Shown here: piece by piece, positions 29,246 to 43,272 of the stretch
Layout of the letters: the number at the start of each line of letters is the position of its first letter
Numbering within the stretch: position 1 is the stretch's first letter
Source: Escherichia phage FV3
DNA: 64,000 nt
Sequence record: NC_019517.1
Strand: one strand, 5' to 3'
Position numbers and translations under genes: made by a program
The notes under the pieces: generated by a model
Told to the model about the DNA's origin: nothing
The model's input: the letters and a program-made list of their open reading frames with translations, nothing else
The model's database searches: none

Positions 29246-32200
29246 TTAGTCGTGAGACTCGTTCCAAGGTCCCTGGAAGCTAGAGTTTGAACGACTAACT
29301 ATTACGGTTGGACAAGATATTGTAACTCCTGTCACGCTTGACGTTGACCATGGTGTGTATATCTCGACGATAATGTCTATGGTTTGTTCACCAAGACCTG
29401 TTATCCCTACCGCACACATGCCGTTGTTGTCGTTTCCGTACTTCTTACCTGCAAGGATTTGATGCCCGGCTATCCAAACGTTAAGCTGGGAGCCAGACAA
29501 GGTTCCGTTCAGTTTAAAGAAGAATGTTACGTTCTTACCTTGTCCTGAAACGTTGTCCACATATCTCCACCTCCAACGGCAAACCCTCTGCTGCGAGTTA
29601 TATACCGGAGGGCAGTCACCATAGGTCCTATGTGCAACGATTGCACCTTCGAACTGGTTAGCACGGATAACGGAAGCTTCTACACGTCCACGGAATGTAC
29701 CTCCTGTTGCATCTATGGTGCCTCTAAAGCTACCATTATTGGCATAAACATCTCCACGGAAGGTACCACTGGTGGCGTTAACTGCCCCTGTGAAGTTACC
29801 TGCACTAGCGTTGATATTACCTTTCACCCACACATCCATAAACTGGGCGTGCCCGTTCTTGTTAATATACCAACCGTATTTGTGGTACCCGTTGCCATCG
29901 TAGTTGTTAGACGAAATTTCTTGTGCAATCTTGGCAGAAGAGATCGTCCCGTTCTCTATAAAGGCATCTTTCAAGAACGCTTGGTTGTTCTTAATTGCGA
30001 AAGCAAGGGTTGCTGTTCCATTCCCAGGGTTGTATACCGCAAAGTTGTTTGCACTAACCATGAAGTATGATTGAACTTGGCCTCCAGAACCTTCCATGCC
30101 CAATTGGATACCTGCCACATACTTATTCCCTGCGGAGTCTACCTGTATTTTTGTGCCCCATTGAGCATTTACTTTGCCCTCTAAGTCGGTCACAGCCTTA
30201 GATGTTGTAGCCACTGCAGCTCTTAGCTCTGATACATCCCCAACATCATCAATGATCTCCTGCTTAGCAACAGCAAGTTCTTGACGAATAGCTGACGCTG
30301 TGCCGTTAATAAGATCCACAGTCGCTTTGTTGGTATCGGAGATTGTAGCGTCCAGTGCTGTTTTTGTGGAGGTCAGCTTACCATCCAAATCCGCAATCGC
30401 CTGTTTGTTGGTAGAAATCTCCCCACGTGCAGAAGTTATCTGCTCCGACAGTGCAGAGGTTTTCTGATTCAACAAATCTGTGGTGGCCTTGTTGGTATTG
30501 GCAATCAAGGTATTGAGATCAGTTTTTGCGGTAGTTATCTTACCATCAAGGGTGGTATAGTTCTTAGATACTGTCGCGTTTGTCTGACTGATCTTTTGAT
30601 CCAGAGTTTCAGAGGTCCTGTTGAGAAGATCCACTGTCGCCTGGTTGGTGCTTAAGATGCTTGCATCAAGTTCCGTTCTCTGGGTATTGATCTTGCCATC
30701 TAGAGTTTTATCTCCGGCAAGGTATCCGCTCTCCACACCACCTATTTGTTCTACCAACTCCCCTTTGGCTGCAACCAATTTCTCGTCCAAAGCCTCTGTC
30801 TTTTTGTTCAGAAGATCAGTGGTTGCTTTATTGGTTGTCTCAATCAGGGATGCCAGTCTTCCACTTTCGGTGTTCAGATCGTTGGTGAACTTGTTCTGTG
30901 CAGCAACAAGTTTCTTATCCAGCGCTGTGATATTGCCATTGACATCCTCAAACTTCTGAGTTGTATCTGTAACTACCGCGCCTATCCTATCCCCAAGTTG
31001 TTGGAATGCCTCATCTACCCTTCCGTCCATGTACTTGTTAAGTTCTGTGACACGATTTTCAACATCTTCAATAGAGGAATCTAAAGTGCTCATCAACTCT
31101 TTATAAGTCTCTGTCTTTTTAAATTCCGCATCTATTTGAGGCATCAAATCTTCAATAGAGGTGTAGCAGCGTGCAGCGCATTCTACAAACTGGGAGCTTC
31201 CAAAAGCGTTTGTGGTTCGAATATACCAATAATAAATCTTATCGTTCTGCAGACCTTCAGATGTCCAAGTTGAACCAACACCCATGCGGGTGGCTTTTGA
31301 AGTGACGGTTGCATCACTTGTGTCAGGCAACCTTGTCATACCAGATGTCCAAAAGTCATACTGGGTGCTTACACTTGCTAAGTCCCTGCTGTGTGGAATC
31401 AGGGTGATAGCAAAGTACCCCTGCTTAACTTCTACAGAAACCGGAGCTTCAGGTGCCTGAATGTTAAACTCGCAGTACGCTTCTGGAGATACACCACCTT
31501 TATAAGATGTTGCAACCACGGTTGCTGTGTATGACCCTTTGGTCAATCCCTCTACGCGGACAAACTGCTCGACTGTTTGTGCTGTCCAAATAATCTCTCC
31601 GTTCTTTCTTACCTGCACAATGTTTTGAGCATAAGTCCCAACGTTGTCCCAAGCCAAAACACCGTGAGTTACTTCCCCAGCTTGAAGAACAGAGTATCTA
31701 AAGTTTTGCGGTTGAGCTACACCGGATGGAGATACCGGGATATCTACATCCCCAGAGTCTGGAAGTTGCCCTGTGGCATCATTCCACTCTTTAGCATCTT
31801 GACGGAGTTTTACCTTGACACCACCCTTTTTGGTGAACTCCCATTCAAGAACCCTCATCTCTTGACCCACTATACCAATACTTGGAAGGTCCATCGTAAC
31901 GTAACGCCCAGGCTTAAATTTAAAACCACGCATATTGCAGGTTACTTCAATAATCCTGCCAGCTCTGGCACGTCTTAAGAATATTGCGGAAACACGCTGA
32001 GCCTGATAAGGACTGGTAACAAAGCGATAATCTATATCAATTATCTTTCTTTCTCCGTCCTTCTCCACCCACTCAGGCACGAACACTGATGGGAAGTCTG
32101 TTTCAGAATACCCTTTGGTTGGACTAGTGAATCTACCAGTTATTGTGTTCGATCTTTTGTCGAAGGAGGCTTCCGGATAGATCTTAACCTCACCGCAAAC

Positions 32201-33085
32201 ACAGTCCTCACTCAGTGTCATTGTTGCTGGGCCATAGTATGCACCTACCAGCAGACCATACTTACCAGCTACATAGCTAAGATCTGCACCACAAGCTTTC
32301 AGCATTTCTGCCATAATACTTGCTGGTGCTTCATCCGTGTCGAACTCACCATTAATGGTGTAACGACTCTCACTGGTTCCGTCTGCGTTTCTTACAGCCT
32401 CGTCGCATATGTTGGCAGCCTCCTTGAAGGACTCCCAGTTGATGGTTTCGTCAGGACATTTAAGGTATGTTCTTAAATAGTCCAGAATCACCAAGGCAGC
32501 GTTATTGGTATACACCTCTTTACTGGTGCGAGGATCATAGCATTTTTTACCAACCTTGATGAGTGTAACGTTTGGCAACCCAAAAGGGAACTTGTTAGGG
32601 TCAAACCTGAAGCTAACACGCAGCCAGCTGATCCCTCTACCTATCATGTCCGGTGACCACGATGGGCAGTGTGTACCCATGAAAGGATCAGAGGTTTTTC
32701 TGTCGTTATGTAGCTCCCACGATACCAAATCCCCATACGAGGAAATAGGATTACCGTCGATAAGTATATCTTCTATACCTTCCAGAGAGTGATTGGCAAG
32801 AACAATAGCACAATGAAGGGTTCTGTCTCTATCCTGCTCCAAAAACGCAAGCAATCCAGATGTGCGTGTCTTACCATACACTACAGAACAAGGTGCAGCA
32901 GAAGATCTAAGAAGCTTTTGCCTATCTTGCTGACTTCTGTAAGATTTGTTACCCTCGAAAATCTTATCCAGAGTTCTGGTGGTAACAGTGTTCAGGCTGT
33001 CAGCCAGAGCTGCCTTGGATGCGTTCCAGTCATAGCTTGAAGATCTTGCAGAAGCAACGATGTTATCAATCATTGCAATTGGCAT
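29246..33085 (-). CDS. Large tail fibre protein (1279 aa) with internal coiled-coil repeats and C-terminal beta-helix-like repeats
   Basis: Four degenerate TNKATTDLLN repeats; C-terminal G-x-F-(R/T)-G repeats. Confidence 0.5.
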   Translation of the reverse strand: MPIAMIDNIVASARSSSYDWNASKAALADSLNTVTTRTLDKIFEGNKSYRSQQDRQKLLRSSAAPCSVVYGKTRTSGLLAFLEQDRDRTLHCAIVLANHSLEGIEDILIDGNPISSYGDLVSWELHNDRKTSDPFMGTHCPSWSPDMIGRGISWLRVSFRFDPNKFPFGLPNVTLIKVGKKCYDPRTSKEVYTNNAALVILDYLRTYLKCPDETINWESFKEAANICDEAVRNADGTSESRYTINGEFDTDEAPASIMAEMLKACGADLSYVAGKYGLLVGAYYGPATMTLSEDCVCGEVKIYPEASFDKRSNTITGRFTSPTKGYSETDFPSVFVPEWVEKDGERKIIDIDYRFVTSPYQAQRVSAIFLRRARAGRIIEVTCNMRGFKFKPGRYVTMDLPSIGIVGQEMRVLEWEFTKKGGVKVKLRQDAKEWNDATGQLPDSGDVDIPVSPSGVAQPQNFRYSVLQAGEVTHGVLAWDNVGTYAQNIVQVRKNGEIIWTAQTVEQFVRVEGLTKGSYTATVVATSYKGGVSPEAYCEFNIQAPEAPVSVEVKQGYFAITLIPHSRDLASVSTQYDFWTSGMTRLPDTSDATVTSKATRMGVGSTWTSEGLQNDKIYYWYIRTTNAFGSSQFVECAARCYTSIEDLMPQIDAEFKKTETYKELMSTLDSSIEDVENRVTELNKYMDGRVDEAFQQLGDRIGAVVTDTTQKFEDVNGNITALDKKLVAAQNKFTNDLNTESGRLASLIETTNKATTDLLNKKTEALDEKLVAAKGELVEQIGGVESGYLAGDKTLDGKINTQRTELDASILSTNQATVDLLNRTSETLDQKISQTNATVSKNYTTLDGKITTAKTDLNTLIANTNKATTDLLNQKTSALSEQITSARGEISTNKQAIADLDGKLTSTKTALDATISDTNKATVDLINGTASAIRQELAVAKQEIIDDVGDVSELRAAVATTSKAVTDLEGKVNAQWGTKIQVDSAGNKYVAGIQLGMEGSGGQVQSYFMVSANNFAVYNPGNGTATLAFAIKNNQAFLKDAFIENGTISSAKIAQEISSNNYDGNGYHKYGWYINKNGHAQFMDVWVKGNINASAGNFTGAVNATSGTFRGDVYANNGSFRGTIDATGGTFRGRVEASVIRANQFEGAIVAHRTYGDCPPVYNSQQRVCRWRWRYVDNVSGQGKNVTFFFKLNGTLSGSQLNVWIAGHQILAGKKYGNDNNGMCAVGITGLGEQTIDIIVEIYTPWSTSSVTGVTISCPTVIVSRSNSSFQGPWNESHD
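30300..30860 (-). repeat. Four degenerate tandem DNA repeats (135-185 nt spacing) inside the 1279-aa fibre gene
   Basis: Core GATC(C/A)AC(A/T)GT(C/T)GC(C/T)T(T/G)(G/A)TTGGT recurs at about 30313, 30494, 30628 and 30814 on the plus strand, encoding TNKATTDLLN-type segments. Confidence 0.5.
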
Positions 33086-33522
33086 TAATACCTCCAGACA
33101 TCAACAACGATAGAATCTTTCATATCGAACGTAAAGATCCCTTTATCACCTTTCGCCCAAATCTGGTTGTTCCAGAACACACCAGCGGTGAGGCCGTTCA
33201 GACCTTCGAAAATAACAATATCACCACGCTGAACCTGTTTAGGAGTATCCAGTCGAGTCAAAAAGAGATCAAAAACAGTAGGCAGGTGTGTGGTTTTGAA
33301 ACGGAGCATGCACCATCTCTTGCTTTCCAACTCTGTTTTATACGTTCCTTCAAAGTTAGAAAGAAAATCTGTCCCGTATTGGGCATCAACACACTTAGCC
33401 GCAAAAGTGCAACAATCGTGGAATCCCCATTCAAACGGGACGGTGGCTTCTTCGTCAAATACTTTCCACAATTTTTCTTGCCAGTCTACTAAACGAGGGT
33501 GTGTGCTCATTAAACCTCCCAA
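33085..33522 (-). CDS. Hypothetical tail/baseplate-associated protein (145 aa)
   Basis: ORF in structural operon; overlapping junctions. Confidence 0.4.
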   Translation of the reverse strand: MGGLMSTHPRLVDWQEKLWKVFDEEATVPFEWGFHDCCTFAAKCVDAQYGTDFLSNFEGTYKTELESKRWCMLRFKTTHLPTVFDLFLTRLDTPKQVQRGDIVIFEGLNGLTAGVFWNNQIWAKGDKGIFTFDMKDSIVVDVWRY

Positions 33523-34076
33523 ATGATCGGGCGGCTCGCCACCTGATCCACATATTTAAAAAATCTGTCATTATCGTTTCTTGAGCTATGGCTTTCCTCT
33601 GTGTATCGGTAAGGAAAACCTCTTAACCAGCTGTTGAAGATGGAAGAGATGGATATGGACAAAGCACTATTCTCCCCTGTCTGAATAGCCATGTCCGTTA
33701 TAAGGCCGTCAAACAAGCCATTAGTTGTAACAGGCAAACCATTCTCCATAGCGGTGATATACAACGTGGCACGGCAACCAGAATACTCAGTCTTCAGAAG
33801 ATCACCTACATACTTGGGATCAAACCCGTTCAATGTTGCTACCACAGATCCGAAGTTGGTGGCATCTTTCTCAGACACAGCAGTCAATGTTGCTGATCCA
33901 CCTATCCCTATGAAATGTTGACCCTCAATCACTACAACACCAGTTCCTGAGCACACCCTGACAGTACCTGTTGGCAGCTCTAGCTTTGCAGCAATTAAGA
34001 TCTCAACACCATCAAGCTCTAGCTTTTCAAGAAATAAATTATCTAATGGCGCTCTTATCATCTTAGAAATCCTCAA
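33510..34076 (-). CDS. Hypothetical tail/baseplate-associated protein (188 aa)
   Basis: ORF in structural operon. Confidence 0.4.
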   Translation of the reverse strand: MRISKMIRAPLDNLFLEKLELDGVEILIAAKLELPTGTVRVCSGTGVVVIEGQHFIGIGGSATLTAVSEKDATNFGSVVATLNGFDPKYVGDLLKTEYSGCRATLYITAMENGLPVTTNGLFDGLITDMAIQTGENSALSISISSIFNSWLRGFPYRYTEESHSSRNDNDRFFKYVDQVASRPIIWEV

Positions 34077-34653
34077 AGAAGTTGATAACTATATTGTCAC
34101 CTTTCTGCATAGCATCAACCTTTTGCTTAATTTTATAAAGATCTCTGATATGAAATCTACCCTTCGGAGATTGAGTTATTATCTTCATGGTATCCCCTGC
34201 GGCAATAGGTTTCCTAAGTCTTGGAGATATGTTTATAACAGCAGCCCCAACACCATCGCTTCGTACTGAGGCTGTCACCACTTTCAACTCATCATTGACA
34301 GATATTTTATCCCCAGCTCTGGCTATATCCCTGTTAGGCTCCCAACCAACCGTCTTCAAAAAATCGTCGTTACCAGTCGGTCCGAGAGCGATTGGCTCGT
34401 TGGAGGTAACTGAATGCCCATAAGCCTTGATAAGAAAAATGTTCCCATCTTTGTAAACCTGATCAACAAAGCTTTTGAGCTCCAACAACTGAGACTCGCT
34501 GATATTGGAAACCGTCAAAGTGCCTTTCCAGTTAGGAGTGGCATAGGTGACTTTTTGCGTCTTACCTGTAAACGGGCTTTTAAATGTAACGATGTCTGCC
34601 AGTAACTCCAATCTAATATCTGGGAGGTATCTAGGCCTTTCCCATAAAAACAT
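34063..34653 (-). CDS. Hypothetical tail/baseplate-associated protein (196 aa)
   Basis: ORF in structural operon. Confidence 0.4.
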   Translation of the reverse strand: MFLWERPRYLPDIRLELLADIVTFKSPFTGKTQKVTYATPNWKGTLTVSNISESQLLELKSFVDQVYKDGNIFLIKAYGHSVTSNEPIALGPTGNDDFLKTVGWEPNRDIARAGDKISVNDELKVVTASVRSDGVGAAVINISPRLRKPIAAGDTMKIITQSPKGRFHIRDLYKIKQKVDAMQKGDNIVINFFEDF

Positions 34654-34711: not shown

Positions 34712-34746
34712 AATACAAACAAAAAGCCCCCGCCGAAGCGAGGGCA
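34712..34746 (-). terminator. Rho-independent terminator (minus strand), GCCCUCGC-UUCG-GCGGGGGC hairpin plus U-tract
   Basis: Pairing is complete only on the minus-strand transcript (a U-G wobble where the plus strand has C-A); followed by TTTTTGTTTG. Confidence 0.5.
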
Positions 34747-34752
34747 AAACAG

Positions 34753-37700
34753 TTACTTCAATTTTCCTTGTAACTCGGTAACAACCTCTGTTAGTTTTTT
34801 AACCTGTTCCTCAAGGGAGGTTATTCTATCATCTTGTTCTCTGCAAACCTGAACAAGCAATCCTGTTACAGCCGCATAGTCAACATTATAGAATCTTTCC
34901 TCGGTCATCAGAGGAATACCATCTTGAGTAGGACCAGGAACCTCTTTCCTTTTCACGAAAGAACCAACAGCTTCAGGTAATGCTTCCATGACCTCTTGAG
35001 CAATTACCCCCGCGTGAGGCATACCATTCTCTTTTAGAGTGTAGGTATAGCCCTTCATCTTACGGATAGCTTCCAGCGCGTTAGGAATAACCTCTATGTT
35101 ATCCTTCAGGTCACGGTCAGAGCTCTGGCTGACAGCGGTGCACTCTACTACGCCGTTGACAGCAAGGTACCTTGACTTGGCCTCATCTGTCTTAGCACCA
35201 CAATGCCATACCCAACTGGCAGATGTAGCGTTGTCGTTTATCTGGAACTCAAGCACGTTCTTCCTGTCTGCGCCATTACCCCAGTAGTACATTCTGCCTG
35301 TATTAGAAGGCATGTTGGAAGTGTTGGTAACATCAGTCCCGCCACCTGTATGTATCATGAACTCCGGGTCAAGATTGGAGCCTGCGGTTTTAAGAGTAAT
35401 TCCCTTACCACCAAGCTGCTGCCAAGGTCCCCATGTGAAAACACTACCTATTGTTGTTCCATAACGCAGGAATTTTTCCCCAAGATATGATATATACTCC
35501 TGTACGCAACTCTCTGGAACATTGGCGTAGTTCCTATACACTATAAGCGTACCTGCTCGGGAGCATGGGTAGTTTCTATCAGGTGTGGCTTGAGCATTGG
35601 CCTCCTGATGATAAAAACCTTCCCTATCCCCTTTGTAGTCGTTAAGGTCATTAATCCCTAGACCTTGCCCTCTGTGTTGTATGACCTTGTTCCACGCTCT
35701 ATGGTTACCACCCTCGATAGATCTGGTGTATAACTGATCAAGGCGGCCAGCCATTTGGAAAGCATAGTTTCCAGAGAACGCCACAGACAGTCCACCAACA
35801 ACCATCGAGCCCTCTGGTCCGTTAACATTACCCGCCATTATTTTTGACGGGTTATTAGACCCAAACTGGTTGTTCCAGTCTCCACCAGTATGACATACAA
35901 AACCACCAGGGGCCGAGAAAGTACCGTCTTTGTTGAAATTGTAGAATCTGTGAGCTGTGCCCACAACATCGCGAACAATAACTTGACCAGCTTCTGGGGT
36001 AGATCTGAACTCTGCCTGACCTTTGAGGCCAGCACCATTACCGCATTTAGAGGTAAACGTACCGTTAGTTAGATCCTCTGTTCCATCTGATGCACACTGG
36101 AATCCTGCATTAGAGAATAACGCCTTTCTAGGGCTGCCATAGCACAAATAGTCAATACCGTCAGCCCATAGTTCGACTTTAGGCATGTTCATTTTGCTCA
36201 TCACCGCATAGCGTTCAGCAGTGCCTATATAGTGCCACTGTGTGCCGCCGCCAGTGTAGAACCCAGAGGTACCTTTGAAGTCAACAACAGGTCTGGTGTT
36301 GGTATTGTCATCTCCAAGAACAGCAAGATTCAAATCTGCTGACTGGAGAGGCGCAACAAACTTAACACCGTCCTGATTGTCTGTTACAGCTCCGACCTGG
36401 TAATCTTGCTCTCTGGTAAACACTTCTACAACATTTCTACTTGCGTATACGCTGATAGGGAAAGCACGAGCCTCTGCATAGAAAGCAACATACTCTTGTT
36501 TACCCCTTGTTGGAGCAACCATTCCAAGAAGTGCTTTTTCATTTTGATAGAAATTTACTACCCCGTAGAAAGAATCTCCTCTATCTGTCCAACCACCAGT
36601 TCTATAGTGACACTGCAAGGTGGCGCAGTTCATAGGGTCACCGCCGGATGACGATCTGGTAACTAGGGTAATATCAGTGCCAGTTGTTGGAGCATAGTAC
36701 GGATCTGTTCTAACGATGATTGGGTAGTATTTCCCATCTTCCATCCCTGCAGTTCTTGGCAGTGTTAAGAAATCTTTGACACCCGCAGCTATAGGAACTT
36801 TGAACAGATTCTGAGCATCTGCCAGGGTTGTAGCCCCAGTGCCACCTGCGGCTTGAGGTAAAGGTTCCCACTTGGCCTTCCGGTTGTTATAAACACCCCA
36901 TTCTAGAGTACCATTACCGGATTCATCCATACCGCCATCCCAGACGACCATCTTAGCGGCTTTCTTGGAACCCCAGAACCCTCTTTCTGCCCCTGAACTA
37001 CGAATCCATTCCCCAAGTCCCCAGTTTGTCAGCTGACCCGTGAGATCCCCGACCTGCATGTACTTAGGACAATCTAATACACCATCTTCACGGAATCCTA
37101 AATACCGATGAGTTTCAGATCCTTTTGCGCCTTTGTGCAGGTGGACTGTTAACCAAGTCTTATTGTCGTTTCTTACCTCGGAGTAGATCCTATACCCATG
37201 CTCAAGGACACCGTCAGCACTGTATTTGTCCCCGTTAACAATACCTGATGCCGACTTAACATCAGCAGAGCTTTGAGACAGGTAAAGGTGCCCGAAGGTA
37301 GGGGAATTTCTAGACCCAAGACCGATGTGCGATCTAAAAGTATCATCGTTACGAGGTCTGACCATTGGCTGCCATGCAGTCCACTGGTTTGTGTTGGCCT
37401 GATAGGTTCTTAAATACCAAACATCTACGTTAGAGAATGGATAGTATTCCTGACGACAGCCAGTGCCACCGTTAGCATTGTTCTGCCAAACAATCAAGTG
37501 ACCAGCACCAGAACCTGCAGGATAACCATTTGCCTCAGTTGCATTAGCTGTCATCGGCTGGTAGTATATGCCGTCCTGATTACCAGTCAAGTTATTGATA
37601 TTGAAATTTGCCTCAAGGGCTGCACGTTGCTTATAGAAAGCACCGATATTGATACGGACTCCAGCGGCATCTCTGGCTCCTGTACCGCCTTGCTCTATAG

Positions 37701-38553
37701 CAAGAGGTTGCCACGAGGCTGTTTGCTGGTTCCACATACCCCAACGGCCTGTTGCATCAAGCTGCAAGTACCCTGCCGTGTTTAAATCATCTCCAGCACG
37801 GATAACTGTTCTTGTTGGGTTGTTTGCCTCCAGGCGTTTAAATTCATCACGAAGTGCTATTCTTTTTGTTGTTGCTACACCGTTGGTTACTGCAATGGTA
37901 TACATGGCTCCAGAGGTAGCGCCACGGAAAATACCATCAACAGTCGTAGTATCACGACGAGATACCACACCGTTCAAAAATTTTTCACCAGCTGCTTCAG
38001 AAGGGTAGTTAGTAGTTCTTCCCTCTTCAATAACTGCAGGACCAACAAAGTTGACAAGGTGAATAACATCGCCTACAGTATGCACTGTACCAAAATCTAC
38101 CCGCTGTGCAAGTGCTTTAGCATCGTTGGCTGTCTGAACCGTAACATCCATTACATCCTGGACAGACTGCCCTTCGGCTGTCATGATCATAGATGCGCCA
38201 ATGGTAGACTCCAACTCCTCCCTTAAGGACGGGTCTGTATATACCATCCATGCAGCATCAGTAATCCCACCATCAGAGTACGGTGAAGACAGTGCAGGCA
38301 CAGTGTGTGGAAATTCGCCTTTCCAACGCAGGTAGAGGTCTTCCTCTTCGAAGTAGGCAAAATCCATTGGGCCGTTTAACTTACCACCTTCCTTAAAGGA
38401 GATTACATGAGAAACAGTCCCATCCACATGGACAACATCGCCAATTTTTACACGACGGGTCAGGTCTGGTTGTTGAACAACCAGGTAATCATCCTCTGTC
38501 ACTGCGGTAGTGGCAGGAAGAGATTCAATTCTGACAACTTTAATATCAGCCAT
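34753..38553 (-). CDS. Long tail fibre (1266 aa) with phage-fibre repeats and C-terminal intramolecular chaperone (peptidase S74-like) domain
   Basis: Repeated W-x-P-L...GGTGA motifs; C-terminal DLKDNIEVIPNALEAIRKMKGYTYTLKENGMPHAGVIAQEV typical of the auto-cleaving chaperone domain; conserved N-terminal anchor region. Confidence 0.65.
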   Translation of the reverse strand: MADIKVVRIESLPATTAVTEDDYLVVQQPDLTRRVKIGDVVHVDGTVSHVISFKEGGKLNGPMDFAYFEEEDLYLRWKGEFPHTVPALSSPYSDGGITDAAWMVYTDPSLREELESTIGASMIMTAEGQSVQDVMDVTVQTANDAKALAQRVDFGTVHTVGDVIHLVNFVGPAVIEEGRTTNYPSEAAGEKFLNGVVSRRDTTTVDGIFRGATSGAMYTIAVTNGVATTKRIALRDEFKRLEANNPTRTVIRAGDDLNTAGYLQLDATGRWGMWNQQTASWQPLAIEQGGTGARDAAGVRINIGAFYKQRAALEANFNINNLTGNQDGIYYQPMTANATEANGYPAGSGAGHLIVWQNNANGGTGCRQEYYPFSNVDVWYLRTYQANTNQWTAWQPMVRPRNDDTFRSHIGLGSRNSPTFGHLYLSQSSADVKSASGIVNGDKYSADGVLEHGYRIYSEVRNDNKTWLTVHLHKGAKGSETHRYLGFREDGVLDCPKYMQVGDLTGQLTNWGLGEWIRSSGAERGFWGSKKAAKMVVWDGGMDESGNGTLEWGVYNNRKAKWEPLPQAAGGTGATTLADAQNLFKVPIAAGVKDFLTLPRTAGMEDGKYYPIIVRTDPYYAPTTGTDITLVTRSSSGGDPMNCATLQCHYRTGGWTDRGDSFYGVVNFYQNEKALLGMVAPTRGKQEYVAFYAEARAFPISVYASRNVVEVFTREQDYQVGAVTDNQDGVKFVAPLQSADLNLAVLGDDNTNTRPVVDFKGTSGFYTGGGTQWHYIGTAERYAVMSKMNMPKVELWADGIDYLCYGSPRKALFSNAGFQCASDGTEDLTNGTFTSKCGNGAGLKGQAEFRSTPEAGQVIVRDVVGTAHRFYNFNKDGTFSAPGGFVCHTGGDWNNQFGSNNPSKIMAGNVNGPEGSMVVGGLSVAFSGNYAFQMAGRLDQLYTRSIEGGNHRAWNKVIQHRGQGLGINDLNDYKGDREGFYHQEANAQATPDRNYPCSRAGTLIVYRNYANVPESCVQEYISYLGEKFLRYGTTIGSVFTWGPWQQLGGKGITLKTAGSNLDPEFMIHTGGGTDVTNTSNMPSNTGRMYYWGNGADRKNVLEFQINDNATSASWVWHCGAKTDEAKSRYLAVNGVVECTAVSQSSDRDLKDNIEVIPNALEAIRKMKGYTYTLKENGMPHAGVIAQEVMEALPEAVGSFVKRKEVPGPTQDGIPLMTEERFYNVDYAAVTGLLVQVCREQDDRITSLEEQVKKLTEVVTELQGKLK

Positions 38554-38588
38554 TCTTTCTCCTGAAAGGGGGCAAACAGCCCCCTATG

Positions 38589-41186
38589 TTAAAGGTACAA
38601 TCCACGGTATTGAGCATAAAGTCCCAGACCGCGAAGGATTTCGCCAGAGTGATAGCCTACCGGATCAGAAACTGCCCAGCAGCCGTTTAAAACATTATCC
38701 CCGTTAATGAAGTGGTGCTTTTGCAGTAACTTCACACAGGCTTCTACAACAATATCTATTTGAGGTATTGTCTCTGAATACCCGCAAAGACCTAGCCAGC
38801 AGCAACCTGCAAGCCATTCACCTACCACCCACATCCTGTCACCTCTGTCTTGATAAGAATATCCTCCTGAGGTGTTAAAGTCTGTAGGGAGATTTCCGGA
38901 ATGAGATGACTGGAATCTGTTGAGGAACCATGCCCATTTCTGGCAGAACAGGAACAGTCTTTCGTCAACAGGTTCTTTATGTTTCTTAAGCTCATATAGT
39001 GTGCGGCACGCAGCAACAAAGGCTCTTGATTGGAGTTTAGAGTTATCTACCATCTCCCACCAACCAGTCAACCCTTCATTACCCCTCTGCCATACGTAGC
39101 GGGATGCAACTGGTCCTTCTGTTTTAAATGTGTTATTATACCAAACTTGGGAGTCGTACATAAATCCAATTGTATTTGCCAATCTTTGACGATCTATGTT
39201 TTCCGCACCCATACAGTAGACTACCGGATATTGCATTCCGGGATAGGGCCAATTTGGCCTTTCCTCTAGAAGATAATTTTCCTTATCTATCACCTTTCCG
39301 GCAGGGAACACACCTGGAGTGTGTCTGTATGCGCCTTGCTTGTAGTTTCTGACATAGCAATCACCAACCTTGGCGGTTGATTCTGTCTTGCTTGCCATCC
39401 ATACACTAAACCAGATCAGATAAGCATCTCTATCTGCAACATAAAATTGCGGCAGCGTGTTGACGCAATACAGATCGAACAAGCCATTGCCTATCTGCCT
39501 GTCGCTCAGACTGAAATCTACAGAGGTAATTCCTTTAGGGTTGGCAAAGAAAGGTTTAATCTCATCTTCTGTGTGATGAGGTTGTGTTGGATCTAGTTTA
39601 AAATCCCCTAGGGTAAGAGTTTCTGTTATCCATTGTCCGTTAGTGGCATATAGATCAGCATACCATAACCAACGGTCTTTGTCAAGAAATTTGACCCTTA
39701 CCATCTCATCATCTGATCGATAAGTTACTGAGTTTAAAGAAATCTCTCTTCCAAAATTGAAAGTTACTTTGCCTCTTACTATGTTGCAACGGGTGAAGTT
39801 GTCGGAGTGGTTGTAAATGTCGGTATCATACTGCATACTAACACTAGCGCCACCGCTTACGGCAATGTTTTCCTCTTTTGGCAAGAGATACGGGTTACCG
39901 TCTTTACCAACCACCTCTACGAAATCAGTAACTTTGGCAACTGTCTCTGTTACTTCTGACCCTCCAAAAGGGACCCCTATCCTATACTGTTTTTTGTTAT
40001 TGTTGCCATCATTAAGGATGAAATGTGGCTGGAACAGAACCCCCTCTCCTCCGAAATTCATAACAATTTCAGCATCTCTGCCTATCTTGTATGTAGTCCC
40101 TTTTTGGATTATTTCGCAAGGCTGGCGTGCGTTCATTCTAAAATTGATATACCCGTCGCTGTCCCTACTCATGACAGGAACTGTTCCTGCAACGAGACAA
40201 GTACCATCTGTGAACGGTGCCTTAATCAACGTGGTCTTTCTAAACAACTTGTCGTAGGCATTTATATCACTGAAATTAAGCAACTTGTTGTAAGACTGTT
40301 TAAACGCTGTGTAATACTTTTCCTCGCCTGTCAAAGTGTAGAGTTGATAACAAGCGTCACACCACATTTCTTCCCCGTCCAACTCTGGGGCTTGATTGTC
40401 TGCAACCACATTTATAGGGTTTACAATTACAGGGGATCCAGCAGGTATCACCGATCCACCCTGCTCTTGTGGCAATCTCACACAGTAGGTTACTTTGTGG
40501 CTGCCTGTAACACCCTTATCCTGCAGTTGGATTGTGCCGAACTCTGCAGACGTATGACCACTGTCGGCTATGCTACCGTTGGCCCAATAGCGGTTACCAT
40601 CCCATGCTATATACCACTCAACCCACCAACTCAATCCAGATGTTGTCCAATTTGGGTTAGCATCTGTGCCGCCGTAAACATCAGAGTCTACAGTGTTTCT
40701 TCCTAGCACACCGTTATACGCTTGGAATGCCTTGTCTAGGTATTCACCCCATGTCGGAGATCCAGCTGGGATTTTTCCTCTACCGTTGGTAAAAGACACC
40801 ACTACATCTTTAAACCCACCATGTGATGGAACCCCGTCTGTGGATAATGGGTAGTGGGACAATCTTTGCATTTTACTTTCTACTGCATATGCACCCAGAA
40901 GGTGACTGTTGTAGGCTTCCCAAGCTTCTTTGGCCCTATCTAGATAAAAATCGCTTTTCGATGCCCTGTATGCTTCAATGTATCCCAGAATCAACACAGC
41001 TTGAGCTTCATGCATTGCCCAATCATTATTTATCTTACTCCCTGACCAACCTGACGCTATAAGTCCATCCTGGTTTACCAGTTTGTTCTGCGTGGGGAGA
41101 TTGGTAATGCCTGTGTTATTATCGAGGCACTTCCTGTGCCCCTCAATCATCTGAAATACGTTATCAATATTGTGTTGAATACGCAT
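38589..41186 (-). CDS. Large tail-associated protein (865 aa), possible glycan-degrading tailspike body
   Basis: Trp/Tyr-rich enzyme-like composition; starts 1 nt after the stop of the anchor-domain gene. Confidence 0.4.
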   Translation of the reverse strand: MRIQHNIDNVFQMIEGHRKCLDNNTGITNLPTQNKLVNQDGLIASGWSGSKINNDWAMHEAQAVLILGYIEAYRASKSDFYLDRAKEAWEAYNSHLLGAYAVESKMQRLSHYPLSTDGVPSHGGFKDVVVSFTNGRGKIPAGSPTWGEYLDKAFQAYNGVLGRNTVDSDVYGGTDANPNWTTSGLSWWVEWYIAWDGNRYWANGSIADSGHTSAEFGTIQLQDKGVTGSHKVTYCVRLPQEQGGSVIPAGSPVIVNPINVVADNQAPELDGEEMWCDACYQLYTLTGEEKYYTAFKQSYNKLLNFSDINAYDKLFRKTTLIKAPFTDGTCLVAGTVPVMSRDSDGYINFRMNARQPCEIIQKGTTYKIGRDAEIVMNFGGEGVLFQPHFILNDGNNNKKQYRIGVPFGGSEVTETVAKVTDFVEVVGKDGNPYLLPKEENIAVSGGASVSMQYDTDIYNHSDNFTRCNIVRGKVTFNFGREISLNSVTYRSDDEMVRVKFLDKDRWLWYADLYATNGQWITETLTLGDFKLDPTQPHHTEDEIKPFFANPKGITSVDFSLSDRQIGNGLFDLYCVNTLPQFYVADRDAYLIWFSVWMASKTESTAKVGDCYVRNYKQGAYRHTPGVFPAGKVIDKENYLLEERPNWPYPGMQYPVVYCMGAENIDRQRLANTIGFMYDSQVWYNNTFKTEGPVASRYVWQRGNEGLTGWWEMVDNSKLQSRAFVAACRTLYELKKHKEPVDERLFLFCQKWAWFLNRFQSSHSGNLPTDFNTSGGYSYQDRGDRMWVVGEWLAGCCWLGLCGYSETIPQIDIVVEACVKLLQKHHFINGDNVLNGCWAVSDPVGYHSGEILRGLGLYAQYRGLYL

Positions 41187-41187
41187 C

Positions 41188-41856
41188 TTAGATAGCTCCT
41201 GCGATAATCAGTGCCCCGTACCAAGTTAACCCGTTGTCGTAGGTTTCTAACTTGAAAATATCTGTTGCACCAGCTGTAAATGTTAGGATAGGATCTCTTC
41301 CGTATGCCCATTTAACATTATCAGGCCAATAGACTTTGTTGCCGCCAGATGTCTGAGTAATGCATACGGTTATAGTTCTCGCCACCCCTTCAAGACCTTC
41401 TGTTTGATTCTCAAAAGAGATCGTGGTATTTGAAGTTAGTCGAACTTTAAAAGTGTCAGCAACTTCAAGATCCATATCAAGCTGACCACCAATAGACCCG
41501 TAATCAACTATTCTACCAGAAGAAGTTGCAGCAAGCTCTCCAAAAACAGACCAGGCTTTTGCAGACACACCCCCAGCACCCTCTACAGTAGAGTCTGGGA
41601 GGATTATTTTAGGATAATCCCCGTTCCACGTGTAGTAGCGCTTGGTCTCTGGGTCATAAGCAAAGTCCTTCTTGCTCTTAAGATAACCACCCTCTGTGAA
41701 ATAGACTATTTTAGTAATGCTGAGATCGTTGACAACATCGTCAATCTTAGCCTTTCTTGTCCCATCAGTCTGATTGACAACCAAGAAGTCATCACTCAGG
41801 ACTGTTTCTGCATCTTCAAGATCTGGAATTGGTATTGTAGGATAAGCTACAGCCAT
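41188..41856 (-). CDS. Tail fibre anchor/adaptor-domain protein (222 aa)
   Basis: N-terminus IPDLEDAETVLSDDFLVVNQTDGTRKAKIDDVV...FTEGGYLKSKKDFAY parallels the N-terminus of the 1266-aa fibre. Confidence 0.5.
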   Translation of the reverse strand: MAVAYPTIPIPDLEDAETVLSDDFLVVNQTDGTRKAKIDDVVNDLSITKIVYFTEGGYLKSKKDFAYDPETKRYYTWNGDYPKIILPDSTVEGAGGVSAKAWSVFGELAATSSGRIVDYGSIGGQLDMDLEVADTFKVRLTSNTTISFENQTEGLEGVARTITVCITQTSGGNKVYWPDNVKWAYGRDPILTFTAGATDIFKLETYDNGLTWYGALIIAGAI

Positions 41857-41865
41857 GATTTCTCC

Positions 41866-42582
41866 TTAGTTAACATCAATAGCACGACCAGACTGGTTGG
41901 CAATAGCCTCATCATTAGAGGTGGCAATAACACCAGAGTATTCGCGCTCATCTGGAGCAAGCGTCCAGGTATTGCGGTTAATGGTTTGTTCTGCCTCGGT
42001 CATCAGCAGATCTTTATCCTGAGTCAACAGAGAGCCTACAGGGATCGGGTTTTCCATCTCAGGACCAGCATACTGGTTCCACCATGTGGCATCCCCGGTT
42101 CTAGGTAATCTAAAGTTGATCAGGTAGTACAGTTTATTAGCCCACTTAATCCAACCTTCATCATCACAGAGAGAGGTTGTCCCGGCATCAGGCTGTGGAT
42201 AGGTAAACTGATCAAGACCTACGAAAGCAAGTCTTACAATCTCGTTCTCCTTGGTAACAACCTCAAAGAACGCTTGATATGTTCTCGATCTTCGATCCAT
42301 AGTAGATTGGAAGTTTATGATGTTTAGCACATCCGGCTCTTGTCTTGCCACTTCCATAATCTTGTTATCAAGAACAGTCTTCATGACCTTCTTGCTAAGA
42401 AAGTCCATATAAGGGAAGCCAAACAACTCATCAAAGTACCAGCTCCCTTTCCAGGTATTAAACCTCATCCACAGGCGCTGGCGCAGACTTACTTGGTTTG
42501 AGTCTATCAACTTAAGACCTTTGTCTATCGCCAAATCACCTGTCTGTGGGTCCATCAATATATCACTATAAAGCGTAGCCAT
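41866..42582 (-). CDS. Putative baseplate protein (238 aa)
   Basis: Position between spike and fibre genes. Confidence 0.35.
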   Translation of the reverse strand: MATLYSDILMDPQTGDLAIDKGLKLIDSNQVSLRQRLWMRFNTWKGSWYFDELFGFPYMDFLSKKVMKTVLDNKIMEVARQEPDVLNIINFQSTMDRRSRTYQAFFEVVTKENEIVRLAFVGLDQFTYPQPDAGTTSLCDDEGWIKWANKLYYLINFRLPRTGDATWWNQYAGPEMENPIPVGSLLTQDKDLLMTEAEQTINRNTWTLAPDEREYSGVIATSNDEAIANQSGRAIDVN

Positions 42583-42594
42583 GCAAGCCCTCTA

Positions 42595-43272
42595 TTAGTG
42601 CGGTCCACTTGTCTCACCATCAGGGCAAGAGTGGGTATGACCTTTATATTCTGCATAGAATGAGTCCAAATCCACACCAGCAGCAGTTATGATTCTACCC
42701 GATGGGTCTATTGTGGCACCATTCATTCTAATATTTCCGTCCACAGCAGCTCGTAAATTGGCAGCTCCGTTGGTGAAAGAAAACTCCCCGCTACTGTCGC
42801 ACCGTAATGTCCCACCAGGTGTTTGAAGCTCAAAATCACCAGAAGGTGTCAGCTTAAAATAAACCTTATCATTCCATAGCTCTACATTGTCAGGATCGAT
42901 CTGCAAAGCGTTAGAGTCTGAATGAACAGAGGTTATTGCCCACCCCGGAAACAGGCCGTGAGTTTGTTGATCATCATTATTGTTTTCATTTCTCTCTGAA
43001 AACTGCAATCCTACAACATCACCAGCCTTAATAGGAAGTGTTAACCTTGCCTTCCCACTGTTTGCAGACATCACCTGTATTGGCACATCATAGATAAGAG
43101 GGTATCTCTCAACATCCCCGTCATCAAACGTTGTTTCAGCTATTGGCTGCACTGCTGCGGAGGGGATACTGTAATCTACACTGACAACTCTGGCCCTGAT
43201 ACTGGTGTGGTAGTCCCTCATTATTTTTTCTATAAAGGATCTTACGGCAGCATCTTTCCTATTTATTGCCAT
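42595..43272 (-). CDS. Baseplate central spike protein (P2 gpV-like)
   Basis: C-terminal GHTHSCPDGETSGPH matches the P2 gpV apex HTHKHPGDSGGTTGSPL (metal-binding His motif); 225 aa. Confidence 0.65.
   Translation of the reverse strand: MAINRKDAAVRSFIEKIMRDYHTSIRARVVSVDYSIPSAAVQPIAETTFDDGDVERYPLIYDVPIQVMSANSGKARLTLPIKAGDVVGLQFSERNENNNDDQQTHGLFPGWAITSVHSDSNALQIDPDNVELWNDKVYFKLTPSGDFELQTPGGTLRCDSSGEFSFTNGAANLRAAVDGNIRMNGATIDPSGRIITAAGVDLDSFYAEYKGHTHSCPDGETSGPH

What the first reader, a model, noticed from the sequence alone, without database searches (positions are those of the whole stretch)
38589..41856. Possible split tailspike: anchor-domain protein immediately followed by an enzyme-like 865-aa protein
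The 222-aa protein (41188-41856) shares its N-terminal region with the N-terminus of the 1266-aa fibre (FLVVNQTDGTRKAKIDDVV / YLVVQQPDLTRRVKIGDVV; FTEGGYLKSKKDFAY / FKEGGKLNGPMDFAY), suggesting a common baseplate-attachment module. Its stop is 1 nt before the start of the 865-aa Trp/Tyr-rich protein, which lacks that module. The pair may form a two-subunit tailspike, or a recently split or fused receptor-binding gene.
Basis: partly seen in the sequence, partly recalled or inferred. Interest (0 to 1): 0.5.

Follow-up and report, generated by a model that had tools for sequence, protein, structure and literature searches.

The report
Adaptor plus enzyme-like tail appendage pair
In this rV5-like E. 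coli phage a small virion-anchoring protein and the large sugar-enzyme-like protein encoded right after it belong to a two-gene "anchor plus cargo" cassette found in many unrelated phages, so they most likely build one two-part host-recognition appendage.

Summary
The 222-aa protein (41188-41856, minus strand) and the 1266-aa fibre share an N-terminal module (38% identity over 99 residues, E 2e-18; both hit Pfam Tail_spike_N). Its stop codon lies 1 nt before the ATG of the 865-aa protein, which lacks that module. The window is a Vequintavirus; the genes are rV5 gp43, gp42 and gp41, all reported in rV5 virions.

New here: the last ~105 residues of the 222-aa protein form a conserved domain ("CTD") with no Pfam family. 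A gene ending in this CTD sits directly upstream of an 865-aa homologue in 13 of 13 inspected phage or prophage contexts and in 66 of 76 IMG/VR loci. Its N-terminal part is swapped between lineages (T7 tail-fibre domain, collagen, coiled coil, SPRY, or none). In the other 10 loci (Serratia P2-like prophages) the large protein is fused in frame to baseplate protein gpI.

Best reading: an adaptor that non-covalently carries an anchorless glycosidase-like cargo. The split is ancient, not recent, and this is not a beta-helix tailspike. Physical binding and catalysis are inferred, not shown.

The parts
41188..41856 (-). 222-aa adaptor protein (orthologue of rV5 gp43; positional and sequence homologue of phi92 gp140)
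   Evidence: ORF and translation; PHROG 7760 'tail fiber protein' E 6e-119; rV5 record has the same gene layout; reported in rV5 virions by mass spectrometry.
41722..41856 (-). N-terminal peptide, residues 1-45, the putative attachment element. It is shared with the 1266-aa fibre and with the 157-aa adaptor of Phapecoctavirus.
   Evidence: phmmer of residues 1-48 against a 12-sequence set: 1266-aa N-terminus E 2.8e-7, Phapecoctavirus small protein E 7.2e-5. The Phapecoctavirus adaptor is only this peptide plus the CTD.
41527..41721 (-). Tail_spike_N domain (PF18668), about residues 46-110
   Evidence: Pfam E 3e-10, 40.5 bits against cut-off 25, residues 51-104. PDB sequence hits to N-terminal regions of tailspikes: 9occ gp13, 8x8m, CBA120 TSP1/3/4, 4qnl.
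41191..41514 (-). Conserved C-terminal domain (CTD, about residues 115-222). It is a beta-sandwich and the proposed knob that carries the 865-aa protein. It has no Pfam family.
41187..41200 (-). Gene junction: AGGAG Shine-Dalgarno (41200-41196) inside the end of the 222-aa gene, TAA stop (41190-41188), and a 1-nt spacer (41187) before the ATG at 41186
   Evidence: Sequence read directly. The 865-aa frame has a stop 7 codons upstream of its ATG, so no fusion by frameshift is apparent.
38589..41186 (-). 865-aa anchorless cargo protein with a six-hairpin (alpha/alpha)6 glycosidase-like fold (orthologue of rV5 gp42, LL12 gp42 and phi92 gp141)
39348..40202 (-). Beta-rich insertion (about residues 329-613) between the helical hairpins of the 865-aa protein
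   Evidence: Secondary structure of the AF2 model: helices 59-97, 269-319 and 663-861; strands 329-613. PHROG 23426 matches residues 482-580. This is a low-confidence model.
38239..38535 (-). Second copy of the N-terminal module (peptide plus Tail_spike_N), at residues 7-105 of the 1266-aa fibre
   Evidence: BLASTP E 2e-18; Pfam Tail_spike_N 41.2 bits.
34753..38553 (-). 1266-aa lateral fibre (rV5 gp41 orthologue) with a C-terminal Peptidase_S74 intramolecular chaperone. It is the last gene of the transcription unit.
   Evidence: Pfam Peptidase_S74 60.8 bits. Strong terminator-like hairpin at 34745-34726 just after its stop, and none between the three genes.

Best explanation
The 222-aa and 865-aa proteins form a two-component side appendage of the baseplate. 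The 222-aa protein is the adaptor. It has an N-terminal attachment peptide plus a Tail_spike_N domain (the same module that mounts the 1266-aa fibre) and a C-terminal ~105-residue beta-sandwich knob (CTD). It is probably a trimer. The 865-aa protein has no virion-binding module of its own. It is carried non-covalently on the CTD, probably through its conserved N-terminal helix. It presents an (alpha/alpha)6 six-hairpin glycosidase-like domain, with an inserted beta-rich region, to a conserved surface glycan of the host. The two genes are translationally coupled (SD inside the upstream gene, 1-nt spacer) and co-transcribed with the baseplate genes and the 1266-aa fibre. The pair is one instance of a portable cassette. 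Across phages the cargo and the CTD stay constant while the adaptor's N-terminal anchor is exchanged to fit the virion, and in Serratia P2-like prophages the cargo is fused directly to baseplate wedge protein gpI. Shown: homology, gene adjacency, co-distribution, anchor swapping, the gpI fusion, and virion presence in rV5 (from the literature). Supported at fold level only, on a low-confidence model: the six-hairpin fold. Inferred: physical CTD-cargo binding, stoichiometry, position on the baseplate, the glycan target and catalytic activity.
For: (1) Shared N-module and 1-nt junction.
(2) The CTD is conserved in small proteins of unrelated phages while their N-termini differ. An HMM built from five lineages finds the CTD in the gene immediately upstream of the cargo homologue in four independent test lineages (E 2e-31 to 9e-17) and four more (E 3e-28 to 5e-24). 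These include N4-like Philippe, SPN3US-like EC001, a Vibrio phage and a Burkholderia prophage region.
(3) In an IMG/VR sample of 76 loci with upstream DNA, 66 have a CTD ORF ending -3 to +53 nt from the cargo core (E at most 4e-23). The other 10 are in-frame Tail_P2_I-cargo fusions, and none lacks both. The fusion occurs in seven Serratia species.
(4) tblastn of cargo and of CTD each hit 523 phage records with near-identical genus counts and adjacent coordinates where both are listed.
(5) In T7-like Pienvirus phiR8-01 and Aeromonas phage Atoyac1 the adaptor carries Phage_T7_tail (E 6e-9 and 3e-12). There the pair occupies the single tail-fibre locus between the internal virion protein and the holin.
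(6) Salmonella phage Arash has a CTD-only 107-aa protein, which cannot be a fibre on its own.
(7) Six-hairpin fold.
(8) The rV5 paper names gp41, gp42 and gp43 among proteins detected in virions, and the gene layout is identical.
(9) The 222-aa model resembles the trimeric Pa223 spike, which has an N-terminal attachment, a shaft and a TNF-fold knob. CTDs also terminate collagen-like, hence trimeric, stalks.
Confidence: 0.65

Rival explanations
1. Two separate appendages. The 222-aa protein is an autonomous short trimeric spike whose knob (CTD) itself binds a host receptor. The 865-aa protein is mounted on the virion by some other route. Their strict linkage would reflect functional cooperation (for example the enzyme exposes the ligand of the knob) rather than a physical complex.
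For: The best structural match of the 222-aa model is the free-standing Pa223 capsid spike, which has a TNF-fold knob. Knob domains at fibre tips are commonly receptor-binding (general knowledge). One CTD protein is followed by a non-homologous gene.
Against: The cargo has no recognisable anchor in any split-form lineage. In T7-like phages the only tail-binding domain in the fibre locus is on the small protein. Arash encodes a bare CTD with no anchor. Where the adaptor gene is absent the cargo is fused to a baseplate protein instead, as expected if the adaptor's role is to supply the anchor.
Confidence: 0.17
2. The pair is a physical complex, but the 865-aa protein of this phage lineage is a non-catalytic glycan-binding or structural module that only retains the six-hairpin fold.
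For: Twelve of 29 positions conserved in the rest of the family are substituted in the Vequintavirus lineage, including the D of the 'RWD' motif and the H of 'TGHM'. There is no significant match to any glycoside-hydrolase Pfam model. The LL12 authors saw no enzymatic domains in its tail proteins.
Against: E60, Q62, D270, E272, R341, D502 and R721 are retained. Other groups' HHpred-based annotations call homologues glycosidases or hydrolases. No activity has been assayed either way.
Confidence: 0.3
3. The small protein is an assembly chaperone or scaffold needed to fold the large protein, not a structural adaptor.
For: Small genes next to fibre genes are often chaperones (general knowledge). 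Translational coupling fits a fixed folding stoichiometry.
Against: rV5 gp43 is reported in virions. The small proteins carry bona fide virion-attachment domains (Tail_spike_N, Phage_T7_tail, BppU_N, collagen stalks). Fibre chaperones are normally encoded downstream of the fibre gene.
Confidence: 0.04
4. A recent gene split, a sequencing frameshift, or a programmed frameshift or read-through of one ancestral tailspike gene.
For: A 1-nt spacer between the ORFs. Fused relatives of the cargo exist.
Against: The same split, with the same 1-nt gap, is in rV5, and 116 of 118 matching records align over at least 80% of the stretch at 90-99% identity. The split form is shared by at least 13 distant lineages. 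The 865-aa frame has a stop 7 codons upstream of its ATG, I saw no slippery heptamer in the last codons of the 222-aa gene, and the gene has its own SD. The unambiguous fused forms use a different anchor (gpI), not the 222-aa protein.
Confidence: 0.01

Closest known systems
Adaptor-mediated tailspikes of SP6/K1E/K1-5-like podoviruses (adaptor gp37 with a T7 gp17-like N-terminal domain carrying anchorless tailspikes). Recalled from Leiman et al. 2007 and Tu et al. 2017, not re-read here; the K1E/K1-5 arm-plus-endosialidase architecture is described in PMC13450770.
   Same: A small protein supplies the virion-binding domain and a separate, anchorless enzymatic protein supplies host-glycan recognition. 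In Pienvirus and Atoyac1 homologues of the present cassette the adaptor even has the same Phage_T7_tail N-terminal domain.
   Different: The docking domain here is a distinct ~105-residue CTD with no Pfam family. The cargo is an (alpha/alpha)6 barrel rather than a beta-helix or beta-propeller trimer. The same CTD-cargo pair is found on myoviruses, N4-like and T7-like podoviruses, jumbo phages and prophages.
Branched tailspike complexes of CBA120 (TSP4/TSP2 carrying TSP1/TSP3) and G7C (gp66 carrying gp63.1), and the 'anchor-branch' receptor-binding proteins of Klebsiella phages with T4 gp10-like docking domains. Recalled from Plattner et al. 2019, Prokhorov et al. 2017 and Latka et al. 2019.
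   Different: In those systems both partners are large trimeric beta-helix tailspikes and the carried spike docks by its own N-terminal domain. Here the carrier is a minimal adaptor with no enzymatic domain. gp10-like identity of the CTD is not established: the better Foldseek match is to the Pa223 spike, which has a TNF-fold knob.
phi92 gp140/gp141 and rV5 gp43/gp42 (the orthologous genes)
   Same: Same genes. rV5 has an identical layout. LL12 gp42 aligns over nearly the full length of phi92 gp141. gp141 is listed as a putative glycosidase tail protein. SPFM11 annotators equate the small protein with Phi92_gp140.
   Different: In the literature I could read, they are listed as separate putative fibres. 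The 2026 phi92 cryo-EM paper screened gp140 alone as a candidate for the unassigned fibre II and did not list gp141 among its candidates or consider a gp140-gp141 complex. The cassette-wide linkage and the gpI fusion were not mentioned. Schwarzer et al. 2012 could not be read.
Pseudomonas phage Pa223 capsid spike gp52 (PDB 9ny6)
   Same: Best Foldseek match of the 222-aa model (E 2.3e-4, probability 0.99). It is a trimer with a ~40-residue N-terminal attachment segment, a shaft and a C-terminal TNF-fold knob.
   Different: gp52 sits on the capsid, has a long triple beta-helix, and has no known partner protein. Sequence identity is 16% and the query model is low-confidence outside the CTD.
Six-hairpin (alpha/alpha)6 glycoside hydrolases and epimerases (GH105, GH88, GH76, GH48, GH8/9, cellobiose 2-epimerase)
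   Different: About 285 residues of beta-rich insertion. No family-level sequence membership. Several family-conserved polar residues are replaced in this lineage. It is virion-borne.

Membership tests
Pfam Tail_spike_N (PF18668; N-terminal domain of CBA120 TSP1 / G7C gp66) | Score above the curated gathering threshold (25 bits) | tested here: met
   222-aa protein: 40.5 bits, residues 51-104. 1266-aa protein: 41.2 bits, residues 46-103. 865-aa protein: no hit.
Classical phage tailspike (trimeric right-handed beta-helix depolymerase) | Parallel beta-helix catalytic domain | tested here: not met
   The 865-aa model matches only (alpha/alpha)6 barrels. No beta-helix or pectate-lyase Pfam hit.
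Classical phage tailspike (trimeric right-handed beta-helix depolymerase) | Own N-terminal particle-binding domain | tested here: not met
   The 865-aa protein and most homologues match from about residues 2-20 directly with the conserved core.
Six-hairpin glycosidase superfamily | (alpha/alpha)6 barrel fold | tested here: met
Six-hairpin glycosidase superfamily | Membership of a defined GH family by sequence (Pfam gathering score) | tested here: not met
   No Pfam hit for the window protein. Among 37 family members, 3 matched GH76 (best E 0.0034) and 2 matched GH127, at a 0.1 E-value cut-off.
Six-hairpin glycosidase superfamily | Catalytic acid/base residues and measurable hydrolytic activity | not testable with these tools
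   E60 and D270, at the N-termini of predicted helices, are candidates, but 12 of 29 family-conserved positions are substituted.
Adaptor-cargo (branched) receptor-binding complexes (K1-5 gp37 type; CBA120/G7C type) | Adaptor carries a virion-attachment domain that the cargo lacks | tested here: met
   Tail_spike_N in the window protein. Phage_T7_tail, collagen, BppU_N and SPRY-containing N-termini in homologous adaptors. The cargo is anchorless.
Adaptor-cargo (branched) receptor-binding complexes (K1-5 gp37 type; CBA120/G7C type) | Adaptor has a T4 gp10-like docking domain | tested here: inconclusive
Adaptor-cargo (branched) receptor-binding complexes (K1-5 gp37 type; CBA120/G7C type) | Physical complex of adaptor and cargo on the virion | not testable with these tools
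   Only indirect evidence: strict adjacency and co-distribution, the cis-anchored gpI fusion, and virion presence of both proteins in rV5.
CTD-adaptor / six-hairpin cargo cassette (defined here) | CTD-containing gene ends within a few tens of nt of the start of the cargo gene, on the same strand | tested here: met
   Window: 1-nt gap. 13 of 13 annotated split contexts and 66 of 76 IMG/VR loci, with a gap of -3 to +53 nt.
Orthology to phi92 gp141 / rV5 gp42 | Full-length similarity and conserved position downstream of the spike, sheath-initiator and gp140-like genes | tested here: met
   rV5 gp042 is 865 aa in the same layout. Full-length tblastn at 34-35% identity to Phapecoctavirus and phi92-like records. 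The LL12 paper links gp42 to phi92 gp141.
Peptidase_S74 (endosialidase-type intramolecular chaperone), for the neighbouring 1266-aa fibre | Pfam gathering score (22 bits) | tested here: met
   60.8 bits, residues 1145-1196.

The most novel reading that the evidence does not exclude
The ~105-residue CTD is a general 'socket' domain, possibly a TNF/C1q-like trimeric knob, by which phages of any morphotype recruit anchorless glycan-active proteins to the virion. Those proteins would include the six-hairpin family and perhaps others, such as the Asp-box-motif-rich protein in L010. Under this reading, host-range modules could move between myo-, podo- and jumbo phages by swapping only the adaptor's N-terminal anchor, or by fusing the cargo to a baseplate protein as in Serratia P2-like prophages. 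The gp140-gp141 complex would then be a candidate for the still unassigned side-fibre density (fibre II, or the arm of fibre I) of phi92-like and rV5-like phages.
Probability: 0.35. Interest if true: 0.65.

Novelty: new variant of a known kind. Interest (0 to 1): 0.5.

Why it matters
rV5-like and phi92-like phages are among the most frequently isolated broad-host-range coliphages and are used in therapeutic cocktails. Yet it is still unclear which genes build which of their side fibres (BASEL paper), and fibre II of phi92 is unassigned.

Treating gp43/gp140 and gp42/gp141 as one adaptor-cargo unit gives a concrete, testable candidate for that density.

More generally, the cassette shows one receptor-binding or enzymatic module being ported between very different virion architectures in two ways. 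Either a short anchor on a small adaptor is exchanged, or the cargo is fused directly to a baseplate protein. That is useful for annotating the many records where these genes are 'hypothetical' or 'tail protein', and it offers a natural blueprint for host-range engineering.

It would matter less if the two proteins turn out not to touch each other.

Tried and rejected
Read-through or frameshift at 41186-41190. Rejected: there is a stop 7 codons upstream of the ATG in the 865-aa frame, I saw no slippery site when reading the junction, and the gene has its own SD.

Word-indexed homologue searches gave very few hits: 5, 4 and 10 proteins. The AF2 alignments were therefore shallow and the models poor. 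Complex prediction was not possible with the allowed inputs.

Direct PDB sequence search with the 865-aa protein found nothing.

Natural fusion of a CTD adaptor to the cargo. Four metagenomic long forms, plus Serratia phage PCH45 and Salmonella phage SPLA10, have a ~280-residue N-terminal extension. The first hhalign against the CTD gave probability 1.6%. A richer profile gave probability 54%, E 1.3e-4, with targeted hmmsearch E-values of 9e-8 to 7e-5 for three of the five extensions and non-significant values (0.023, 0.12) for the other two. This is left as 'probable divergent CTD, not proven'. The genes upstream of those long forms have no CTD.

The search for related loci with the 37-sequence alignment failed because it was too diverse. 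It was repeated with a 7-sequence alignment.

Literature leads that proved irrelevant: SD286 'gp38' is a 123-aa unrelated protein, and phi80-18 and Ahp1 have a single conventional fibre. Schwarzer et al. 2012 is not in the library.

The Serratia fusion is absent from E. coli genomes.

I read Asp-box motifs in the L010 downstream protein, but Pfam gave no hit, so that remains unverified.

Promoter-like sites are no more frequent than in shuffled sequence.
Full report
**Identity of the window and check of the observation**

The stretch is 90-99% identical to 118 records, nearly all Vequintavirus (rV5-like) Escherichia myophages. On the minus strand the genes run in this order:
- tape measure, tube initiator, hub, central spike and a gp25-like sheath initiator;
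- the 222-aa gene (41188-41856);
- the 865-aa gene (38589-41186);
- a 1266-aa fibre (34753-38553).

In rV5 itself these are gp43 (222 aa), gp42 (865 aa) and gp41, with the same one-base gap.

- The junction is TAA-G-ATG, with an AGGAG 9 nt upstream of the ATG.
- The two N-termini align at 38% identity over 99 residues, E 2e-18.
- Both N-termini exceed the Pfam gathering score of Tail_spike_N.
- No other ORF in the window has this module.
- The 865-aa protein lacks it.
- 'Trp/Tyr-rich' is only mildly true.

**No artefact and no recoding**

The 865-aa reading frame has a stop seven codons before its ATG, and I saw no slippery sequence in the last codons of the upstream gene. The split layout is the same in rV5, and 116 of the 118 matching records align over at least 80% of the stretch. 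A terminator-like hairpin follows the 1266-aa gene (34745-34726), with none between the three genes, so they look co-transcribed.

**The key result: a conserved two-gene cassette**

tblastn with the 865-aa protein finds full-length homologues (24-35% identity) in 523 phage records of very different kinds. In every context I opened, a small 'tail fiber' or hypothetical gene abuts or overlaps the start of the large gene:

| Lineage |
|---|
| Phapecoctavirus |
| Rosemountvirus BP63 |
| T7-like Pienvirus phiR8-01 |
| Aeromonas phage Atoyac1 |
| Asteriusvirus UB |
| Kolesnikvirus M7 |
| Salmonella phage Arash |
| N4-like Stenotrophomonas phage Philippe |
| Vibrio phage D509 |
| SPN3US-like EC001 |
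| Burkholderia vietnamiensis prophage region |

Aligning the small proteins shows that only their last ~105 residues are conserved. In the five-sequence alignment the invariant residues, in 222-aa numbering, are Q168, G171, N173-V175, W177, W183, P189, L191, G196, D199, D207, G209, T211, W212 and G214. I call this region the CTD; it has no Pfam family.

An HMM trained on five lineages detects the CTD in the upstream gene of all eight lineages not used for training (E 2e-31 to 9e-17; E 3e-28 to 5e-24).

tblastn with the CTD alone also returns 523 phage records. The genus distribution is nearly the same as for the cargo, and the coordinates are adjacent where both are listed.

In an independent IMG/VR sample (80 loci), 76 loci include upstream DNA.
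- 66 have a CTD ORF ending -3 to +53 nt from the start of the cargo core.
- The other 10 have no CTD. They are P2-like prophage contigs in which the cargo core (residues ~183-1089) is fused in frame to Tail_P2_I, the baseplate wedge protein gpI (PF09684, E 5.7e-52).

The same fusion is present in seven Serratia species. Related prophages of Citrobacter, Rahnella and others matched only over the ~175-residue gpI part. So every sampled family member has an anchor, either in trans (CTD adaptor) or in cis (gpI).

**The anchor is what varies**

N-terminal to the CTD, the small proteins carry different modules:

| Phage or source | N-terminal part of the adaptor |
|---|---|
| This window | Attachment peptide plus Tail_spike_N |
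| Phapecoctavirus | The peptide alone |
| phiR8-01, Atoyac1 | Phage_T7_tail domain |
| Vp_R1 and metagenomic relatives | Collagen-like repeats |
| One metagenomic protein (P0013) | BppU_N plus collagen |
| BP63, Philippe | Ala-rich, probably coiled-coil segments |
| Burkholderia prophage | SPRY domain |
| Arash (107 aa) | Nothing |

In the T7-like phages the pair occupies the only fibre locus, between the internal virion protein and the holin. A relative, Ahp1, has a single 779-aa fibre there. The large protein in phiR8-01 and Atoyac1 can therefore hardly reach the virion except through the small one. A bare CTD, as in Arash, makes sense only if the CTD binds the cargo.

**What the two proteins look like**

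Independently, a 37-sequence family profile hits only six-hairpin enzymes in the PDB, though weakly (GH76 E 1.3e-3). A few members weakly match the GH76 or GH127 Pfam models. Helices 59-97, 269-319 and 663-861 are interrupted by a beta-rich insertion (329-613). Other groups annotate homologues as glycosidase or hydrolase from HHpred.

The fold assignment is therefore reasonably secure. Catalysis is not. E60, D270, E272, R341, D502 and R721 are kept, but 12 of 29 positions conserved in 18 other family members are replaced in the Vequintavirus lineage.

For the 222-aa protein only the CTD is modelled with confidence (pLDDT 70-85), as a beta-sandwich.
- Foldseek's best matches are the trimeric capsid spike gp52 of phage Pa223 (E 2.3e-4) and an Acinetobacter phage tailspike.
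- Pa223 gp52 is a trimer with a ~40-residue N-terminal attachment segment, a shaft and a TNF-fold knob.

Together with the collagen-plus-CTD proteins, this suggests a short trimeric stalk ending in a knob. Whether that knob is TNF/C1q-like or gp10-like remains open.

**Virion presence and prior knowledge**

The rV5 paper names gp41, gp42 and gp43 among proteins detected by virion mass spectrometry. LL12 gp42 aligns over nearly the full length of phi92 gp141, which a review lists as a putative glycosidase. SPFM11 annotators equate the small protein with phi92 gp140.

The BASEL paper states that it is unclear which genes build which Vequintavirinae fibre, and that most of the locus, glycan-active domains included, is highly conserved. 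The 2026 phi92 cryo-EM study could not assign fibre II. It screened gp140 on its own and did not list gp141 among its candidates. I found no description of the adaptor-cargo cassette or of the gpI fusion in the papers available to me.

**Mechanism proposed, with status**

| Status | Statements |
|---|---|
| Shown | Shared N-module; tight gene coupling; strict CTD-cargo linkage across lineages; exchange of anchors; cis-anchored gpI fusion |
| Supported at fold level only (low-confidence model) | Six-hairpin fold of the cargo |
| From the literature | Both proteins are in rV5 virions |
| Inferred | The CTD of a probably trimeric gp43 binds the N-terminal region of gp42; the complex hangs on the baseplate by the same kind of site that mounts the 1266-aa fibre; it recognises, and perhaps cleaves, a conserved envelope glycan |

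The strong conservation of both genes across the 118 matching records (90-99% nucleotide identity) argues for a conserved target rather than a variable one. I put the two-subunit complex at about 0.65.

The main rival is two separate but co-operating appendages (about 0.17). Whether the cargo is catalytic in this lineage is a separate open question; I put the non-catalytic reading at about 0.3.

**Unresolved**

Long forms in the jumbo phages PCH45 and SPLA10, and in metagenomes, carry a ~280-residue N-terminal extension that may end in a divergent CTD (hhalign probability 54%, E 1.3e-4). This would be a second kind of fusion but is not proven. One metagenomic CTD adaptor is followed by an unrelated 376-aa protein, which hints that the CTD may serve more than one cargo.

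**Verdict**

The 'two-subunit' reading is supported by strong comparative evidence but remains physically untested. 'Recent split' and 'classical tailspike' are rejected. The general principle (an adaptor plus an anchorless enzymatic receptor-binding protein) is known. The particular docking domain, the cargo fold and the breadth of the cassette appear undescribed, so I rate this a new variant of a known kind, of moderate interest.

Noticed in passing
window 29246-34653 (minus strand): A siphovirus-style tail-tip module sits inside this myovirus baseplate cluster. It comprises a 196-aa 'distal tail protein' (PHROG 1302), a 188-aa tail protein, a 145-aa protein that BASEL calls a cell-wall hydrolase, and a 1279-aa protein with lambda J-type Phage_Tail_Tip and Ig_J domains. 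The rV5 annotators noted similarity to the siphophage PY54.
   Followed up: partly
window 38000-42600 versus GenBank: This stretch matched 18 records named 'Campylobacter phage' (16 giving Campylobacter jejuni as host); the one listed, C11, is 94.5% identical. The 865-aa and CTD tblastn searches each hit 23 such records. They look like mislabelled or contaminant coliphage sequences.
   Followed up: no
window 38589-41186 (865-aa protein), residues 249, 250, 274, 703, 786 and others: Twelve of 29 polar or aromatic positions that are at least 90% conserved in 18 other family members are substituted in this protein and in its 56%-identical relative P0003. Examples are R249A, N250G, W274M, D703N and H786W. 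Activity or specificity may have changed in the Vequintavirus lineage.
   Followed up: partly
L085-L098 subset (IMG/VR); L099-L107 (Serratia genomes): In Serratia P2-like prophages the baseplate protein gpI (Tail_P2_I) is extended by the whole six-hairpin module, giving a ~1100-aa protein. Related prophages in Citrobacter, Rahnella and Scandinavium matched only over the ~175-residue gpI part. An Acinetobacter qingfengensis locus matches the full length at 41% identity.
   Followed up: yes
L010 7001-9528: A BppU_N + collagen + CTD protein (P0013) is followed, with overlapping stop and start, by a 376-aa protein. That protein has several SxDxGxTW-like (Asp-box) motifs, is not in the 865-aa family, and has no Pfam hit. 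It may be a different cargo for the same docking domain.
   Followed up: partly
P0076 (metagenomic protein, 293 aa): This is an odd chimera. Residues 18-194 match the N-terminus of the large protein family, and residues 200-287 are a CTD (E 6e-20). The order is the reverse of the cassette.
   Followed up: no
L012 (Salmonella phage SPLA10), L013 (Serratia phage PCH45), P0035/P0041/P0045/P0074: These are long forms of the large protein with a ~280-residue N-terminal extension ending in a 'WPxNIxW ... TxDxGxTW'-like pattern. This may be a divergent CTD fused to the cargo (hhalign probability 54%). The abutting upstream genes (257 and 283 aa) have no CTD.
   Followed up: partly
L003 (Salmonella phage BP63) 3336-6916: In Rosemountvirus the cassette lies between the head-tail connector genes and the tail sheath/tube genes, not in the baseplate cluster. 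Its adaptor has an Ala-rich, probably coiled-coil N-terminus. The appendage may therefore be mounted at the neck there (compare S144 ORF17).
   Followed up: no
L106 (Pseudomonas lundensis I31 contig): This contig carries a gpI-six-hairpin fusion 94% identical to that of Serratia proteamaculans. This is either assembly contamination or a very recent transfer.
   Followed up: no
window 34726-34745 (minus strand): A strong intrinsic-terminator-like hairpin (GCCCTCGC-TTCG-GCGGGGGC followed by a T-run) lies immediately after the 1266-aa gene. It marks the end of the transcription unit that contains the 222-aa and 865-aa genes.
   Followed up: no
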